DNA from: Psilocybe cubensis
Lineage: Eukaryota
Direction of reading: 5' to 3'
Assembly: GCA_017499595.2 (NCBI GenBank)
Contig: CM038998.1
Coordinates: forward strand, 1,426,001-1,490,000
DNA: 64,000 nt
Both the position numbers and the translations under genes were made by a program. The notes beneath the pieces were generated by a model that saw only the letters and a program-made list of their open reading frames with translations, searched no databases and had not been told where the DNA came from. Below, piece after piece: positions 11,232 through 20,000 of the stretch. The stretch's first letter is position 1. Each line of letters begins with the position of its first letter.

Positions 11232-13500
11232 TCAATCTTGCCAAACCTTGTCTCCGCGAGTGCGAGCGAACTGCTGCTTAGATTGCTTCTTGCGTTCTCG
11301 GACACTCAACGCTATCTCGCCATAGCTTTGTTTTTGGCGAGCCTTGAAACTATCCTTTCTTTTCCCAATGTCTGCCCCGGAGCCACGATTGCCTTTCCTA
11401 ATCCTTGGTTGGTGACGCTCTACCGGCGCGTTTTTTGGTGCATGGGGGAAAAGATCCCCCCAATTAGACTTCCGAGCATCATAGAATGGCTGTTTGCCTT
11501 GGGACTTAGGAATGGTAATTCGCATCAATTGTCCTAATATAAGCATTAGTGAAAGTTTTTCAATTAATCTTTACCAGGGTTGACACACCTTCTTTGGTGC
11601 AGCTATCTAAGATGATGTGCCCAGGATTTTTTATTGGTCGGAAGACAACTCTGGGCCATTCGTATGCTTCTCTTCGGAGCGCCACCTGCAGATCTGAATC
11701 CCCTAGTTCGTCATCTTGAAGGGTAATGGTACCCTCGGTTTCGGGTATTTCAGCAGTGAGAATATTGTTAACAGTGTCATTTGCATCAAGTTCGACTTTC
11801 AATTCTCTCATTTCCTCATTGGCAAAACGGGCCATTTCCATAGCCCTTTTCCCTACTGCACCAACTCTACCGACCGAAGTATTGACTAGCGTAGGACGAG
11901 GGCCTCGTCGAATGACAGTGTACGAATACCCGATATCTTCGTGGCCAACACGTGTTTGTTTGCTGTGTCGCATGAATGGTGGACGTTGTAGCCGCTGAGA
12001 AAATCCGCAGGTGAGAGTGACGCCTCCCGGACGAAGCAAAGGGCAAGGACGATCATGAGGACACTAAATTGATGTTAACAGTCGATTGGGAGTAGACGAA
12101 AAAAATATTACTGGAGCAAGAACGTGAGAGCCCACAACATCCAATTTCGCGATCGCAGGGTCCTCAACCTCTTCATTACCCAACCGTAACAGATATTCTC
12201 TTGCTTGAGCAACAGCGTGGAAACCTTTTTCTGTATTATGATCAATAATTACCTGTGTGCGTATGTTATTTCATGGTATAAAAATGATGACCAAATCTTA
12301 CTATGGTATGAGCACCACTGTCCCACATCTCCTGAACAATTTTTTTCTGGGCTGTAGCTGTCGACAACGACGTGAGAGCGAATGCCGATAATGCTATTGT
12401 AGCCGGTCCTTCCTCCCGGAGCACCTTGTGTTGTTGTTCGTTAAAGGACTTCTTCCACGAAATATCAATGGAACCAGTTGGAACACCTGGGAATAGTGAG
12501 ATGTGCAGTGATAGTTAAATAGAAAAGGTCGAAACGTACGGGCAGCCAACTTCTTTCCGATAGACGCTAGTCCAACACGTTTCTCAATCCCAACGTAGGA
12601 TAAAATTTTAGATTTTTCGATAACTGCATCCTGAACAGCGTCGGAATCCAGATTGCTTTGGTGTTGAAAAGAATAAACTGAGGCCCTTGGCAACTTTTAG
12701 TAGAAGATGCAATTTGCTTGACTCAAAATGCATACCATAGTCCACTTCCAGTACCCGCACCCCAGTCTATTATTCTGTTCACTTCCCATGAAGGCTCCAA
12801 TCTCTGTTTGATGTGTTGTAAAACCGACATGATTGCTGAATAGTGTGCCGGGAGAGCTACAGTAGCAAATGCCATTCCGTCACGGATAGCATGCCTCATA
12901 GCCTGTTCTCGAGAAGAATATTTGACATCATACTCTGTATCCCACTGCCCTCCGCCACTTTCATCCTCAGGCGCTTTGAAAAGACGTGTCGAATCGCCGC
13001 GCAAAGCCAAAGTTCCTTCCTCTATATCAGGAATACCGATTTAATGAATCACCAACAAGTTTTACAGAAATATTACCGAAGATCAACTGGTCTACAGTAG
13101 ATTTTAATTGTTCCGGGAGAACGACCATGGATATCCGCTTGGAACCGAACAATGCAGCAGGAGATTTTCGGTGTTCAGGATCGTCGGAATCATCTTCGAT
13201 TGTGGGTTCAAGTGGCATTTGCATTGGTAGCCAATCTTGAACAGATAGTTCTTGCGTTACCTGGCTTGATGACCCTTCAATAATCTCCAATTCTCGATGT
13301 ACCGGTGGATTGGCTTTGTTGCTGTTCAAAGCAATATTGATGTCGTTGAGCAAAGCTTGATAGCTAGGATCGAGGTTCAAGGTAGGTTTTGGAGACGCAT
13401 ATCTCCTGGCCCCAGTAGTGCTAAGCGCACCATAGAAAATGTACCTCAGCGAAATACGATTCCCTATCCGCTGAGGAGTTAAAAATGACTTCCTTAGCAT
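11232..13500 (-). CDS. RSM22: Mitochondrial small-subunit assembly factor / methyltransferase-like Rsm22 (METTL17 family)
   Basis: SAM-binding-like IIDWGAGTGSGLW, the Cys motif AP/CPHDRPCPL...CGFSQRLQRP, WPRVVFRPIKNPGHIILDSCT, and FYDARKSNWGDLFP. Confidence 0.9.
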
Positions 13501-13696
13501 CCTTGCTTTGGGGAAGTGAGGTCCCTTCCTTAACTTGAGGGGACAACAAAACCAGTTCATGACTCGGGCCGGGGAAATTTGATGTTCGCTTATGTAAGGT
13601 CCTATTAGTCGCGACCATTGCAGTCATCGCGACTAACACGGTATACCCGCTTTCAATTCTCGAGAAAACCTATTATCTACCAAATTCCTACGCGGA

Positions 13697-15664
13697 ATGT
13701 CGTCAATTGCATCTAAACGCTATGGCGTAGATGGGGATGAAGAATCAATGGAGGAAGATCGACCCAGCAAACGCGCAAGGATGAGCGTTGAACCAGAAGA
13801 CCAAACGGTTGGTTCAAGGCCTCAGGACAAATCAACCGGTAAAGAAGCGACCGTCATCGAACAAGGGGATGAAGAGGATGAGAATGAAACACCAGACCTA
13901 TCTGAGGAAACACGAGCATCTGACCTATACTTGGACACGGTATATTCCTTCATTAGTTCCTCGTTCTACCCATACTGATTCATTATGCGTTTAGATTAAT
14001 AGAGCTAGCTTGGATTTCGACTTCGAAAAGGTCTGCTCTGTTTCTCTATCCAATATCAATATATATGGATGTCTAGTCTGTGGCAAATACTTCCAAGGTC
14101 GAGGCCGTAAATCCTACGCATATGCACATTCCATTCACGACGATCACCACGTATTCATAAATCTTGAAACTACAAAAGTGCCTTTTATGTTCTATCATAA
14201 TTATGTATATGATCTAACAGGGATATAAGGTCTACGTACTTCCAGATGGATACCTTGTGTCTGATCCTTCGCTGGATGACATTGCCTATGTCCTGGCGCC
14301 GACCTTCACCAAAAATTCCGTATCCAGCTTGTCATCCCCTTCACACCTTTCTCGACTCTCTTACGATCTCGGACACAAACCATACCTATCCGGATACGTT
14401 GGCTTGAATAACATCAAAAGGAACGATCATCTGAACGTCATCATCCATTCCCTTTTGCATGTCCCACCTCTACGGGATTATCTCTTGCTGTCAAATTTTC
14501 GCGGGAAAGAACCGGAACTTTTGAAAAGGTTTGCGGGTTTAACGAAGAAGATTTGGAATCCTAGATTGTTCAAGAGTCAAGTCAGCCCTCACGAGTTTCT
14601 CCAAGAGGTAAATAGAGCCAGTGGAGGAAAGTTCAGTCTAGAACAACAAGGTGACCCAGTCGAATTTCTTGGCTGGTTACTTAACCGCCTCCATAAAGAT
14701 TGCGGTGGGACCAAGAAGAAAGATTCTAGTGAGTTAGCTCCATGCATTAGATGGCTTCATTTAATCATGAGGTATCGAAGGTGTAATTTTCAAGACCTTC
14801 CAAGGAGAGCTTAGGGTTGAAACACAACAGGTGTTGGTTCGACCAGAGTCTGGACCAAATGAAAAACCCAAATTTGATATAGATCGTGGTATGCCTTCAT
14901 CGCTAACTCACTCTTTCGTTGATTCAGGTGCTAAAAAAAGTATCCCATAGAATTGAAAACATCAGTTTCACCTTTTCTGTTTTTAGCCGTCGATCTACCT
15001 CCCCCTCCTCTCTTCCAAGACGCCGTTGAAAAAAATATTATTCCGCAAGTTAGCATCCATTCTGTGTTAGCGAAGTATGACGGAAGGACTGCCCAGGTAT
15101 TTGTTTAGCTTTTTTATCATCTTTACCACGACCAATGTTACGTAGGAATCACCCGGTCAACTTCGTAGATACAAATGCCAGAGACTTCCCCCTTACATTA
15201 TTCTTCACTTCAAACGCTTTACGAAGAATATATTCGTAGAAGAGAAAAACCCAACTATCGTTAATTTTCCGTTACGTGGCCTAGATTTCAAAGAATGTAT
15301 GTGCTCTCATCATCATTTAATGCCTATCAACCCACTTTTTTATTTCGCAGATGTTGATGCTCCTCCAACTAATTCGCCCACAATGTACGATCTGATCGCC
15401 AACGTTACCCATGAATCCGTAGCAGGGACCACCAGAGATAAGGAAAATACTGTGTGGAAAGCCTACATCAGAGCAGGAGGAGGAGGAGGCGATAATGAAA
15501 AATGGTTCATGATACAAGATCTCATTGTGGAAGAAACACGGAAAGAGATGATATTTTTAGGCGAGACAACCTTGCAGGTAATTATTAGTCTGGATTGCCG
15601 GGCAGTGAGCAACAAACTCTAACAACTTGTTTGATAGATCTGGGAGCGCAGAAAAGACGTTTAA
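13697..15664 (+). CDS. SAD1: U4/U6.U5 tri-snRNP-associated protein 2 (Sad1/USP39; inactive USP with ZnF-UBP)
   Basis: LYLDT/INRASLDFDFEKVCSVSLSNINIYGCLVCGKYFQGRG, YVGLNNIKRND, KIWNPRLFKSQVSPHEFLQ, FVEEKNPTIVNFP, and terminal QIWERRKDV*. Confidence 0.95.
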
Positions 15665-15797
15665 TAAGCGGAAGACACCTAGCGCCTGCTAGTCAACCTG
15701 CCCACTTGGGTGCTGGCAATGGTGCTGCTGTATATTGATTAAATGGCATCGTGGGCACTCGAGGTACTGGACATAAACAGTGGAGTCGACTTTTACG

Positions 15798-16111
15798 TTA
15801 GTGGGTCTCCCTATTCTTGGTACTGTCTTGTCCCTTCGGGAGATCGTTCGCGCCTATGACGTTTTGGTGATTCGGTGTACCAGTGCTACGTCTAGTTAGA
15901 AATAACAGCAATCAGTCCCTGAATGCATGTGATTTATCTGCTATAACGAACCGTTTCTCCGTTTCCTGCAGAATCAAAGGTCTGAAAATGTAAACTCCCG
16001 ATACAATGCCTGCAGAAGTTGAAATGACGTTTACCAAGTCCCGACAACGAGCGAACACACACCTGCTGTTGATGCAACGAGGAATGGGGTAGCTCGACGA
16101 ATTGCGGACAT
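15798..16111 (-). CDS. 66-aa single-TM microprotein, PIGBOS1-like (3 exons: 16111-16063, 16009-15952, 15891-15798)
   Basis: Manual splicing of two canonical GT-AG introns gives 201 nt in frame: MSAIRRATPFLVASTAGIVSGVYIFRPLILQETEKRRSTGTPNHQNVIGANDLPKGQDSTKNRETH*. GIVSGVYIFRP resembles PIGBOS1 GIAGGVYIFQP (recalled). Confidence 0.75.
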
Positions 16112-16582
16112 AGTTTGTACCTGATGAAAACCGTCCCGTGCTCACTTCAAGAAAAGATTAAGATAAATATCTAATTGAAGGGAGAATTGTAAACGTTGGA
16201 AGCTCTTACCCGCACGATGTCTGAACAACGGGATATAACTGTGAGTCAAGGTTGAGTCAAGAGTCAAGTGATCAAGTCGTTCAACTTCAAACGCATAGCG
16301 CCGTTTGAAACGGACTTCAAACGACTTTGAAAATGATGAATTGAGATCCCGCAAAATTCAAATGGGTTTACAAGGACAAAGGTGGTGTAACATTTACTGC
16401 AAAAGGAAATCCTAGAACAAACTTGAACATCAGATGAACACCGATGCTGCTGCTCAATCAATTATGGTATCGGCCAACAAAAGAACGGAACTCGGTAAAA
16501 TAAGCAAGATATATCGTATTCCTGATATTTAGGAGAACTTGAAATACGGGTCTTTCACGAATGCATTCAAGTTCACAGGATC

Positions 16583-17046
16583 TCATTTCTTTTCCAAGTC
16601 GGCTTTGATCGCCTAATAAGTGAAAGCAAAGATATAGTTACTAGATGATACAGAGGACATATCAATCAATGCTTACCGCGAGTGCCTTCTTAGCAGCCTC
16701 CTGCTTAGCTTGGTTTATGGTGGGTGCCTCTGCGGTACCTTTGACGACTCCTGAAACTAGGAGAGATTCAGAATCCACCTCCCATTAGTATAACTATATG
16801 TCTGACTTTTGCATTCGACAAGCCAAGTCGGCGCATGATCAGTGCCTTTCTTGGTTTCCGCCCAGCTGAGGGAGCTCGTTGATTGAGTCTTAGCGAGGTC
16901 TATACGTATATTAAATGATTCCATAATCATTGGACAGTGAGGGGAAATGAAAACGCACAATTGTGAAGCGAAGTAACGGGGTCTAAGGTGAATGTCAGGA
17001 TCTTATATAATGATGCAGAGTGAAAGCGTGAGCACTCACTAGACAT
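16583..17046 (-). CDS. 77-aa stand-alone double-stranded RNA-binding domain (DSRM) protein (5 exons: 17046-17040, 16982-16959, 16899-16807, 16756-16677, 16612-16583)
   Basis: Four GT-AG introns give 234 nt in frame: MSNPVTSLHNYLAKTQSTSSLSWAETKKGTDHAPTWLVECKISGVVKGTAEAPTINQAKQEAAKKALAAIKADLEKK*. This fits the alpha-beta-beta-beta-alpha dsRBD consensus (NPxSxLxxY, GxxHxPxW, G-A, AKQxAAxxAL). Confidence 0.82.
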
Positions 17047-20000
17047 GGTAGGTTGATCTAGGTGAGTTGAAAAGAGGGCACCAGAAGTTGAGAATTGGTG
17101 AGCAATCGTCCGTCCTTTTGTAGGCGCTTGGTCGACCGAGAAATAAATATTAGTGATCAGAAAACCCGGCAAACTGTGTATCTATGCCAATTAAAAAATG
17201 TCCGAGTGAAAGACTTGATGGGTAATGATGCATCTGCTTGTACATTCAGATCATCCTATTGATCGCCCGCATCTTGCGGACAGATCCACACATACCAAAC
17301 AAAACAAAAGGTGGCATGCTTTAATAACCTATATGAACCATGGGGTCAATGTGGAGCTCGATAGAGATTGATAAAGTATGAATCATCTTTGTTCGTATCA
17401 TATACGCTTTTGTGCGAAACGGGTATTCGGAAAGTGAAGGCGCATTCCAGCCCTCCGACAGTGGTCGTGAAAGCAAGACTCGGGGAAAACCCTGCGATAA
17501 TTCCAATTGGTTCGAGACAGGACAGATGGATCTATTTCTCAAATATGGATCTGCGAGGGATTTCAGGGGTATTCAATGACCTGAAAGGCCAAAGACGCTA
17601 TCCTGGGTAGCCCGTATGTCCCGGACAAAGTCGCTGGCTGATCAGCTTGCCTCGGGAGCGTTGTCCATAGTCGTCTTGTCGGTAATTGACATGAGCGTCT
17701 CGGCGATAGGTATTTTAAGGAGCTTGATATCTGCGCTTGGATGTTCACATGTTCTAATGGTAATATAAGGGAAAGTCATAGAGCTGGAAAAAGAGTATAA
17801 TCTTTAAAATTTCCATTATGATTGAGGAAAACATCAGCAAATAACCCCCGAATGATATCATCTGTAGCCCCCTTTTTGTCGGTTCACTTACTTCGAAAAA
17901 TAGTTCCCGTGTAGCTTATACCCAGCTAGGTCATGGGCGCAAGACGGTCCGATTTCCGAATAATATCTGAAAGTGTATATGTAGAAAAGAAAGCGTCGTT
18001 GTGTAAATATGTCACCAAGAAGGAGCAAATCGTGCGGTGGGAATACATCCCTTTTGTTAACTAGTTCATGAGCCAATTGTCAGCCAGTAGTTTCATGCAT
18101 ATATCGCATTAATATCAATGGGATGTACGTCATACAGAAATGCAAAATTACAGGGCAAATTAGACAAAACAAAGAAGCCTGCGAATCATTGAGCATGGAA
18201 AGAGTAAAATCCGTCAAGAGGTGCCTGAAGAACTGGTGCTTGCTCCCACAAGATAGGCCCACGCAATGTCGGCCGCAATGTTTTTGGCAGCATGCTTTTG
18301 AGGAGCAGTCCCTTCCCCACGTGGTACACCGTTGACTACATTGTTTCCATTTGAGCTGCTATCTGTCAGAAGGTCAGGCATGTAGATGCTCACTTTTGCA
18401 GACACAGGTCCACATTCTCTCGTGGGCAGGGCCCGAGCATGACTCAAGCCAACTAAGTGCTGTTAACCGCCCATGGGCTTGAAGGTCTAGATTCCCGCCC
18501 GGGTAAGCAAACTGTGCTTGATATTGGAGCCGACTTACAGATGTTGAGGCGAGAAGTGCCTGTCATGCGTGATAAATAATGCAGAGAAAAAACATCGTGT
18601 GAGTCTACTCACCTGTCGATGTCTGTGACATTCTAACTCTGCTGAAGATTCCCCCTCTCAGCCTCGACGGCCTTTATATCCCTTTCAACGAACCCCCGCA
18701 AGTGCCTTGTCCTTTCAGCTCGACATAAAAGGCACCATTAATCATCGGAAGATTAACATTAATCCATGTCGCAAATCTCGATAGTTGGACAAAGCGAGAA
18801 GCCAAGGATACTGTATAGAGAAGAGGGAATGGTGGAGTGTATGAAACGATTGCAATTTCCAGGGAAAATAAAAAACAGCGAAGGTGGGATGCCACTGTGC
18901 GCGAGGTCAGGCAATACCGCGGATTGAACATTTAATGGAGAAGACGGGGGTTATGATCACTGGTTCCTTCGACAATTTCTGCATTGTCCTGTTTGCGAAG
19001 TCTCTTGGTGGGAACAAAAGACATGGCTGGGACTACCAGGCTGCGGGTAAGGACACTGGAAGGTTGGTTTCAGCCACGCGGAGGCCACGCACGAAACGGA
19101 ACTCGACTCGAATATCCGATGAAAACCGCAACATCAAAAAAATTACGGAACTCAAATATGGGTCCAAAGGTACATTAGCTATGGAACGGCGGTTAGACAG
19201 ACCGAGTCCAAAACACGGCGAAGAGGTGGATATACATACGCATCACTGCAGCGGCTATAATAGCATTGTAAGAGGTGATATTTTGTGATATTTGAGAAGT
19301 GGATCTGGTTAATCGATGGCTACTAGAGGATGAAAATATGGCAGGCCGTGCTCAGTCGTGGTGCTGTTGTACCATAAACTTGGCCCAAGTTTGCTGATTG
19401 CGGTCGCGTACTTATCGGCACAAATATTTTCTGTTATCCTACGATTCTTCAAAAACAGTGTGCAAGCAAGGTCCAGATGGTTCTTCACGTCATATTCAAC
19501 GTATACTGATAAAGATGGCGCGGGATAGCACATATATGTACCAGATCGGTTCCAGAGATCCAAGTACGGTTGCCTATAAAAACGTTTCTTGATGAAGTAA
19601 ATTTGGACGTGTCTCCTTGCAGAAAGTAGTTTAGGAAGAAGGTGCGGCGTAGCTTTCCAAACACATCGTGCGAAGAGAAAGATTTGAGAAGAAAATCCTC
19701 ATTTTGCAAATGCGACAGGTACTGACGGGCATTTGGCCTTGTCTGTCATATTATTTACATCAACGCTCAGAATACAGAGCGAGTAATCATCCATCTAGGG
19801 TTCCCGCGTTCAATGGATGAGACTAAAGGCGATTTTATCATCAAGATGGATCAGAGACGCCGGTGGAATTTTCCGCAAACAGATCGATCAAAACTCACCC
19901 TAACTGGTTACCTGAGGAGAGGAAGTCCAATGGCATAGCGCATAGAATCTTCATTTGACGCTATGGACTTCGTGGATAGAGAGCCCTGATGCATATCGCG

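What the first reader, a model, noticed from the sequence alone, without database searches (positions are those of the whole stretch)
15798..16111. Hidden three-exon microprotein resembling animal PIGBOS1
Seen in sequence: two canonical introns join three tiny exons into a 66-aa ORF with one hydrophobic helix, ATPFLVASTAGIVSGVYIFRPLILQE. The ORF track shows only a chimeric fragment of it. Established knowledge (recalled): human PIGBOS1 is a roughly 54-aa mitochondrial outer-membrane microprotein (…LFATVLGIAGGVYIFQPVF…) that binds ER CLCC1 and tunes the UPR. Inference: this is a fungal member of that family, easily missed by gene callers, and points to a conserved ER-mitochondria contact microprotein in mushrooms. 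It ends about 130 bp from the SAD1 stop in convergent orientation.
Basis: partly seen in the sequence, partly recalled or inferred. Interest (0 to 1): 0.7.

Follow-up and report, generated by a model that had tools for sequence, protein, structure and literature searches.

The report
Mushroom member of PIGBOS1 microprotein family
This is a real, spliced mushroom gene for a 66-amino-acid membrane microprotein that databases already list as a relative of the human mitochondrial microprotein PIGBOS1, but its proposed job at ER-mitochondria contacts is unproven and a role in the respiratory chain looks at least as likely.

Summary
Contigs of two probable-RNA runs (one study) skip both introns exactly; two DNA-like runs do not. 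A third intron lies in the 5' UTR, so the gene has four exons. It is not hidden: the identical 66-aa protein is already in NCBI/UniRef as hypothetical protein JR316_0000418 of Psilocybe cubensis. It passes Pfam PF23670 PIGBOS1-like at 42.3 bits (cut-off 27). Homologues are annotated across Agaricomycetes, and one is a diatom record. The functional inference is weaker. Conservation sits inside the membrane helix. The residues that line up with the human CLCC1-binding segment (30-36) vary freely. The only CLCC1-related gene found is a Brl1/Brr6-like gene. Published human data show PIGBOS1 co-purifying with HIGD2A and complex III/IV subunits and depending on TOM40 like inner-membrane proteins. 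Best reading (inferred, about 50%): a small single-pass mitochondrial helix acting as a respiratory-chain accessory or assembly factor. Verdict: an already known gene and family; modest interest.

The parts
16210..16240 (-). Non-coding first exon; its upstream limit is approximate, the transcript start is not known
   Evidence: Run X1 contig has 28 nt beyond the joint at 16210 and depth up to about bin 16236-16299; no ATG in the 61 nt above the donor
16145..16209 (-).
   Evidence: Joint 16144-16210 in X1 only, short side 28 nt; ends checked
16112..16144 (-). 5' UTR part of the first coding exon; 33 nt, in-frame stop upstream, no ATG
16063..16111 (-). Coding exon 1 (aa 1-16 and the first base of Gly17): short basic N-terminus and first half of the helix
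   Evidence: this frame alone matches PF23670 positions 1-20 weakly, E 0.16
16010..16062 (-). Intron 1, 53 nt, GT..AG, phase 1; position probably shared across Agaricomycetes
   Evidence: Skipped in X1 and X2; 6 of 103 hits carry a 5-20 aa insertion at this point
15952..16009 (-). Coding exon 2 (aa 17-36): conserved GxxSGxYIFxP core and the variable 30-36 segment
   Evidence: its frame alone gives PF23670 E 6.8e-6
15892..15951 (-). Intron 2, 60 nt, GT..AG
   Evidence: Skipped in X1 and X2
15798..15891 (-). Coding exon 3 (aa 36-66 and stop): unconserved, predicted disordered tail
   Evidence: no Pfam match
15665..15797 (.). 133 nt between the two convergent stop codons; 3' UTRs probably overlap
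   Evidence: one RNA contig runs through both genes, which does not show a single transcript
13995..15664 (+). Convergent neighbour with zf-UBP and UCH domains (SAD1/USP39-like, name recalled); start approximate; context only

Best explanation
Shown: an expressed, spliced, single-copy gene for a 66-aa PF23670 (PIGBOS1-like) protein, already annotated (about 97% sure). It has a short basic N-terminus, one moderately hydrophobic helix and an unconserved disordered tail. Inferred mechanism: it is a mitochondrial single-pass protein whose conserved work is done inside the bilayer. A flat face of small or invariant residues (A13, G17, S20, G21, I24) packs against another membrane helix. Most likely the protein is imported through TOM40 into the inner membrane, basic N-terminus on the matrix side, where it acts as a small accessory or assembly factor of respiratory complexes III/IV together with the Rcf1/HIGD2A-type protein. 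The confidence figure is for this mechanism, not for the gene's identity.
For: Splicing. Identity with an annotated record. Family. Single locus in the genome. Conservation in 62 chosen homologues: G17, S20, G21, Y23, I24, F25 invariant, A13 58/62, P27 61/62; positions 30-36 have entropy 2.5-3.4 bits; N-flank net positive in 60 of 62. The same core residues are invariant in the 10 hits of the search without a word index. A13, G17, S20, G21 and I24 fall within a 100-degree arc of the helical wheel. The model has one helix, residues 4-38, and a low-confidence tail. Human PIGBOS1 co-purified HIGD2A, complex III/IV subunits and carriers (PMC8664129, passages). In the TOMM40-knockdown table it is class 1 (log2 -2.32), like HIGD2A (-2.33) and UQCC3 (-1.79) and unlike CISD1, RMDN3 and AKAP1 (class 3, -0.53 to -0.68) (5 of my 6 chosen controls were in the held file, and their membrane assignments are recalled). 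The paper says most alpha-helical outer-membrane proteins are TOMM40-independent. A HIG_1_N (Rcf1/HIGD2A-type) gene is in this genome. The nearest non-family Atlas clusters include UQCC3, MITRAC7 and PET117 families, at scores under 0.9, so leads only.
Against: Chu et al. 2019 place human PIGBOS in the outer membrane by proteinase K protection and split-GFP, with the C-terminus in the cytosol, and show CLCC1 binding through aa 30-36 (PMC6814811); a 2026 preprint agrees. No localisation or interaction data were found for any fungal member. The invariance of the core is inflated by how the hits were found. TOMM40 knockdown also lowers some outer-membrane proteins indirectly. Yeast Ecm19, a possible but unproven relative (Atlas score 0.86), is dispensable for respiration. 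No animal sequence was among the named hits of my own searches, so the transfer of human data rests on Pfam and the Atlas.
Confidence: 0.5

Rival explanations
1. One reading: an outer-membrane signal-anchored protein whose cytosolic tail binds an ER or nuclear-envelope partner and tunes the unfolded protein response or ER-to-mitochondria calcium transfer. In fungi the partner would have to be the Brl1/Brr6-type homologue of CLCC1.
For: Human data. CLCC1 aa 204-378 is homologous to yeast Brl1/Brr6 (PMC13061601, passages), and this genome has one Brl1/Brr6 gene (PF10104, 93.4 bits). The 30-36 segment keeps a loose acidic bias: net negative in 41 of 62. The human helix is needed for binding as well as the tail, so helix conservation is compatible with this model.
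Against: Positions 30-36 and the tail are not conserved in sequence. The CLCC1-Brl1 homology covers only the TM / luminal helix / TM domain. No PF05934 match was found, though that search had no positive control. The human proteomics point inward.
Confidence: 0.17
2. An outer-membrane (or dual-location) mitochondrial microprotein with a CLCC1-independent job, for example helping mitochondrial fission as reported for yeast Ecm19, possibly as a homo-oligomer formed through the GxxxG-like face.
For: The 'Protein ECM19' cluster is the nearest non-PF23670 row of the Atlas search (0.86, 151 of 256 features; a lead only). Ecm19 is mitochondrial and acts genetically with Mdv1 and Caf4 in fission (PMC12642899, abstract, introduction and passages). 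Human PIGBOS self-associates. G17xxxG21 is invariant.
Against: Homology to Ecm19 was not shown by any alignment here, and ECM19 was not among the rows listed when only residues 1-40 were searched. The Ecm19 cluster has no common Pfam family.
Confidence: 0.2
3. The fungal (and diatom-type) proteins are a real family, but their likeness to animal PIGBOS1 is convergent similarity of short glycine-rich membrane helices. Human functional data would then not transfer, and the protein could sit in another membrane.
For: The aligned region is only about 35 residues and mostly hydrophobic. I could not see the Pfam seed, which may itself be rich in fungi. No named animal hit was among the 102 hits of the fungal profile.
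Against: Atlas features give 0.92 (199 of 256 shared) and 0.90 to chordate-dominated PIGBOS1 clusters. The match runs collinearly from residue 1. The human cloning primer in PMC8664129 Table S7 reads M-F-R-R-L-T-F by my own translation, like the MFRR start of P0004-type, P0006 and P0038 homologues. The human TM region is aa 7-29, in the same register.
Confidence: 0.1

Closest known systems
Pfam PF23670 PIGBOS1-like family (fungal members, e.g. JR316_0000418 of Psilocybe cubensis)
   Same: The spliced product is letter for letter this record and scores 42.3 bits. 100 of 102 profile hits carry precomputed PF23670. ESM Atlas holds Basidiomycota-dominated clusters of 60 and 143 members.
   Different: Nothing at the sequence level; no functional data found for fungal members.
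Human PIGBOS/PIGBOS1 (54 aa; Chu et al. 2019, PMC6814811)
   Same: Short basic N-terminus, single helix in the same register (human TM aa 7-29), small size, shared Pfam model.
   Different: 66 aa against 54. The coding sequence is split by two introns, whereas the human ORF lies in one exon. The segment matching the CLCC1-binding aa 30-36 is variable in fungi. It is not opposite a PIGB gene here; its neighbours are a zf-UBP/UCH gene and a small dsRBD gene.
Small single-pass respiratory-chain assembly factors (UQCC3, MITRAC7/SMIM20, PET117, DUF4516 families)
   Same: Size, single helix, basic N-flank; nearest other Atlas clusters at 0.78-0.84. Their inner-membrane assembly roles are recalled.
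   Different: No Pfam match to any of them; a resemblance in type only, not membership.
Yeast Ecm19 (YLR390W)
   Same: Small mitochondrial protein; Atlas score 0.86.
   Different: Longer (cluster representative 88 aa), no common Pfam family, homology untested by alignment. The paper states that no mammalian orthologue is known and does not mention PIGBOS.

Membership tests
PF23670 PIGBOS1-like | Whole-protein score over the curated cut-off (27 bits) | tested here: met
   42.3 bits, E 8.2e-11, aa 1-43 against profile 1-40 of 54; 10 of 10 true phmmer hits also pass, at 38.5-54.2 bits (the eleventh hit, P0007, is an unrelated 1805-aa PKD protein)
PF23670 PIGBOS1-like | Microprotein with one N-proximal membrane helix | tested here: met
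   66 aa; best 19-residue Kyte-Doolittle mean 1.56; one helix, residues 4-38, pLDDT about 86-92 over residues 11-30
PF23670 PIGBOS1-like | GxxSGxYIFxP core conserved among relatives | tested here: met
   101 of 103 hits, biased by word seeding; invariant in 11 of 11 sequences from the search without a word index
Animal PIGBOS1 (orthology) | Direct sequence or profile similarity to animal PIGBOS1, independent of the Pfam seed | tested here: inconclusive
   Atlas 0.92 and 0.90 to chordate clusters, but no named animal sequence among 102 profile hits; no animal sequence was available to align
Animal PIGBOS1 (function) | Conserved CLCC1-binding segment (aa 30-36) | tested here: inconclusive
   Variable among 62 homologues, entropy 2.5-3.4 bits, loose acidic bias. 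The register assumes that the 54-position profile is numbered like the 54-aa human protein; no direct comparison with the human residues was made
Animal PIGBOS1 (function) | A CLCC1 partner encoded in the genome | tested here: inconclusive
   No PF05934 match, but no control rang; one Brl1/Brr6 gene, the remote homologue, is present
Animal PIGBOS1 (function) | Outer-membrane location, C-terminus in the cytosol, UPR phenotype | not testable with these tools
   Needs experiment; the human literature read here is itself split
UQCC3 / MITRAC7 / PET117 / DUF4516 assembly factors | Profile match to the family | tested here: not met
   Only PF23670 matched at E up to 10; Atlas scores under 0.9

The most novel reading that the evidence does not exclude
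PIGBOS1-like proteins are an ancient eukaryotic family (animals, mushrooms, diatoms, perhaps yeast Ecm19) whose conserved job is inside the mitochondrial inner membrane as a complex III/IV accessory factor working with Rcf1/HIGD2A. The outer-membrane, CLCC1-binding role described for human PIGBOS would then be a later addition or a second pool. Fungi would offer a CLCC1-free system in which to settle the conflict between the two human data sets.
Probability: 0.35. Interest if true: 0.55.

Novelty: already known. Interest (0 to 1): 0.24.

Why it matters
As a gene find it is ordinary: the protein is annotated and the family, with fungal members, is in Pfam and the ESM Atlas. The residual value is comparative. 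The 2019 paper said PIGBOS has no homologues to infer function from, and two human studies disagree on what it binds. The broad conservation of the helix but not of the tail says where the ancestral function lies, and makes a fungal knockout and pull-down an inexpensive way to test it. A search of the held library for PIGBOS with 'fungi' gave 3 papers. The one I opened does not discuss homologues; the other two I saw only as listings. Most subscription papers are not in the library, so this is not proof that the point is unpublished.

Tried and rejected
Homodimer prediction of residues 1-42: no answer (score 0.05, mark 0.32; the alignment was not used), which is no evidence either way. Foldseek of the model against the PDB: no match at E up to 0.001. 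Sequence search of solved structures: two chance rows, E 0.94 and 7.5. No run was on record as RNA; X1 and X2 are the tool's guess, supported by their intron skipping. Alternative splice choices for intron 2 (7 other GT-AG pairs, including an acceptor 6 nt downstream) and intron retention were enumerated; none appears in the contigs, but contigs drop rare forms. Paralogues: other PF23670 hits in the genome are at E 0.2 or worse, two of the three with internal stops; rejected as chance. P0007 was rejected as a spurious hit. For alignment A2 I used 62 of 103 hits, chosen by eye. I dropped models with insertions, N-terminal truncations or extensions, fusions and many near-identical diatom-type records. 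The PF05934 search had no working control. The MitoCoP pull-down table (S5) was not among the 3 held supplements, so I could not see whether CLCC1 was enriched there; the main text does not mention CLCC1.

Full report
Observation. On the minus strand, exons 16111-16063, 16009-15952 and 15891-15798 give a 66-codon frame closed by TAA. The two introns (53 and 60 nt) have GT..AG ends. Five public runs hold the stretch and four were laid. The contigs of X1 and X2 (one study; RNA by the tool's guess) skip 15892-15951 and 16010-16062 exactly, and also five introns of the neighbouring gene. X3 and X5 cover the stretch unspliced. X1 also skips 16145-16209, a 65-nt GT..AG intron in the 5' UTR, so the gene has four exons. 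The 33 nt before the ATG hold an in-frame stop and no other ATG. The neighbour has zf-UBP and UCH domains (the name SAD1 is recalled) and stops at 15664, 133 nt away and convergent.

What it is. A search with the unspliced exon-2 frame returned one protein, P0001, which is letter for letter the spliced product. It is NCBI hypothetical protein JR316_0000418 of Psilocybe cubensis and is also in UniRef. The gene is therefore already called, not hidden. It scores 42.3 bits on Pfam PF23670 PIGBOS1-like (cut-off 27, E 8.2e-11), the only family at E up to 10. The exon-1 and exon-2 frames match consecutive parts of the profile on their own. One locus in the genome matches. A search without a word index gave 11 hits, 10 of them annotated Agaricomycete proteins that all pass PF23670 and one spurious. 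A profile of these found 102 proteins, 100 with precomputed PF23670. The named ones are Agaricomycetes plus two EukProt records, from the diatom Cylindrotheca closterium and from Tiarina fusa; I did not check these two for contamination. No named animal protein was among them. The link to animals rests on Pfam, whose seed I could not see, on ESM Atlas features (0.92 and 0.90 to chordate-dominated PIGBOS1 clusters), and on a similar start: the human primer in PMC8664129 Table S7 reads M-F-R-R-L-T-F by my translation, like MFRR in P0006 and P0038. Six of 103 hits carry a 5-20 residue insertion exactly at the intron-1 position.

Anatomy. In 62 of the 103 hits, chosen by eye for clean models, G17, S20, G21, Y23, I24 and F25 are invariant, A13 is kept in 58 and P27 in 61. 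The N-terminal flank is net positive in 60 of 62. From residue 30 on, the columns are variable (entropy 2.5-3.4 bits for 30-36), and the tail runs from 6 to 56 residues. The word-seeded search inflates the invariance, but the same residues are invariant in the 11-sequence set from the unseeded search. A13, G17, S20, G21 and I24 lie within a 100-degree arc of the helix. AlphaFold2 gives one helix (4-38) and a low-confidence tail, mean pLDDT 67. Inference: the conserved function is helix-to-helix packing inside a membrane, not a cytosolic binding motif.

How it probably works. Human PIGBOS was described as an outer-membrane protein that binds the ER protein CLCC1 through aa 30-36, self-associates and tunes the UPR (PMC6814811; passages and sections 9 and 14). 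A 2026 preprint adds calcium transfer and lower respiration on loss (passages). A second study found PIGBOS1 co-purifying with HIGD2A (the Rcf1 orthologue), complex III/IV subunits and carriers (PMC8664129; passages). In that study's TOMM40-knockdown table PIGBOS1 is class 1 (-2.32), like HIGD2A (-2.33) and UQCC3 (-1.79). CISD1, RMDN3 and AKAP1, which I recall as outer-membrane anchored and picked as controls, are class 3 (-0.53 to -0.68); a sixth control, SMIM20, was not in the held part of the file. The authors note that most alpha-helical outer-membrane proteins are TOMM40-independent. In this genome I found a HIG_1_N gene, no MCLC/CLCC1 match (without a working control) and one Brl1/Brr6 gene. 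Brl1/Brr6 shares only the membrane-fusion domain with CLCC1 (PMC13061601; passages). If the 54-position profile is numbered like the human protein, the human binding segment falls on the variable fungal positions 30-36. I therefore favour an inner-membrane accessory or assembly role for complexes III/IV (about 0.5). Next come an outer-membrane role independent of CLCC1, possibly Ecm19-like (0.2), the ER-contact model (0.17) and convergence (0.1). Every step from the helix onward is inferred: I found no experiment on a fungal member, and the direct outer-membrane evidence for the human protein stands against my preferred reading.

Comparison and novelty. Membership of PF23670 is tested and met. 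Orthology to the animal protein is likely but was not tested independently of Pfam and the Atlas. Whether it works like human PIGBOS is open. The gene and the family's presence in Basidiomycota are already in public databases. Searches of the held library (PIGBOS1; PIGBOS with fungi; PIGBOS with inner membrane and complex IV; ECM19) showed no title or abstract opening on fungal homologues. I opened six papers in part; the rest I saw only as listings. The Ecm19 paper (abstract, introduction and passages) does not mention PIGBOS. MitoCoP Table S5, which I could not see, bears on the CLCC1 question.

Verdict. A correct and well-spotted gene, already annotated, in a known family. Interest 0.24, held above the floor only because the conservation pattern gives a cheap test of a disagreement in the human literature.

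Noticed in passing
window 16590-17050 (- strand, limits approximate): A small intron-split double-stranded-RNA-binding-domain gene lies just upstream on the same strand (dsrm E 0.0055 for one exon frame, below cut-off). An Amanita muscaria model, P0068, joins a similar dsRBD (42-43% identity to two exon frames) to a PIGBOS1-like part. This suggests conserved gene order read as a merged gene model; an unfused A. muscaria record (P0054) also exists.
   Followed up: partly
window 16145-16209 (- strand): 65-nt 5'-UTR intron, seen in run X1 only.
   Followed up: yes
window 15665-15797: One RNA contig runs through both convergent genes, so their 3' UTRs probably overlap. Runs X3 and X5 carry an 8-nt insertion behind 15721 that the window and runs X1 and X2 lack, probably a strain difference.
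   Followed up: no
window 12723-13623 (- strand): Rsm22-family gene (mitochondrial small ribosomal subunit; PF09243) lies head to head with the zf-UBP/UCH gene.
   Followed up: no
L005/L006 (G000:C1:3558145-3558534): Only one Brl1/Brr6-like locus (PF10104) was found in the genome, where budding yeast has two paralogues.
   Followed up: no
window 15886-15891 (- strand): A second AG 6 nt into exon 3 would give an in-frame product two residues shorter; it is not seen in the contigs.
   Followed up: partly
P0063-P0100 group of hits: A tight group of mostly unnamed environmental homologues, including the diatom record P0100, has a conserved charged helical tail after the core, unlike the variable mushroom tails.
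   Followed up: no
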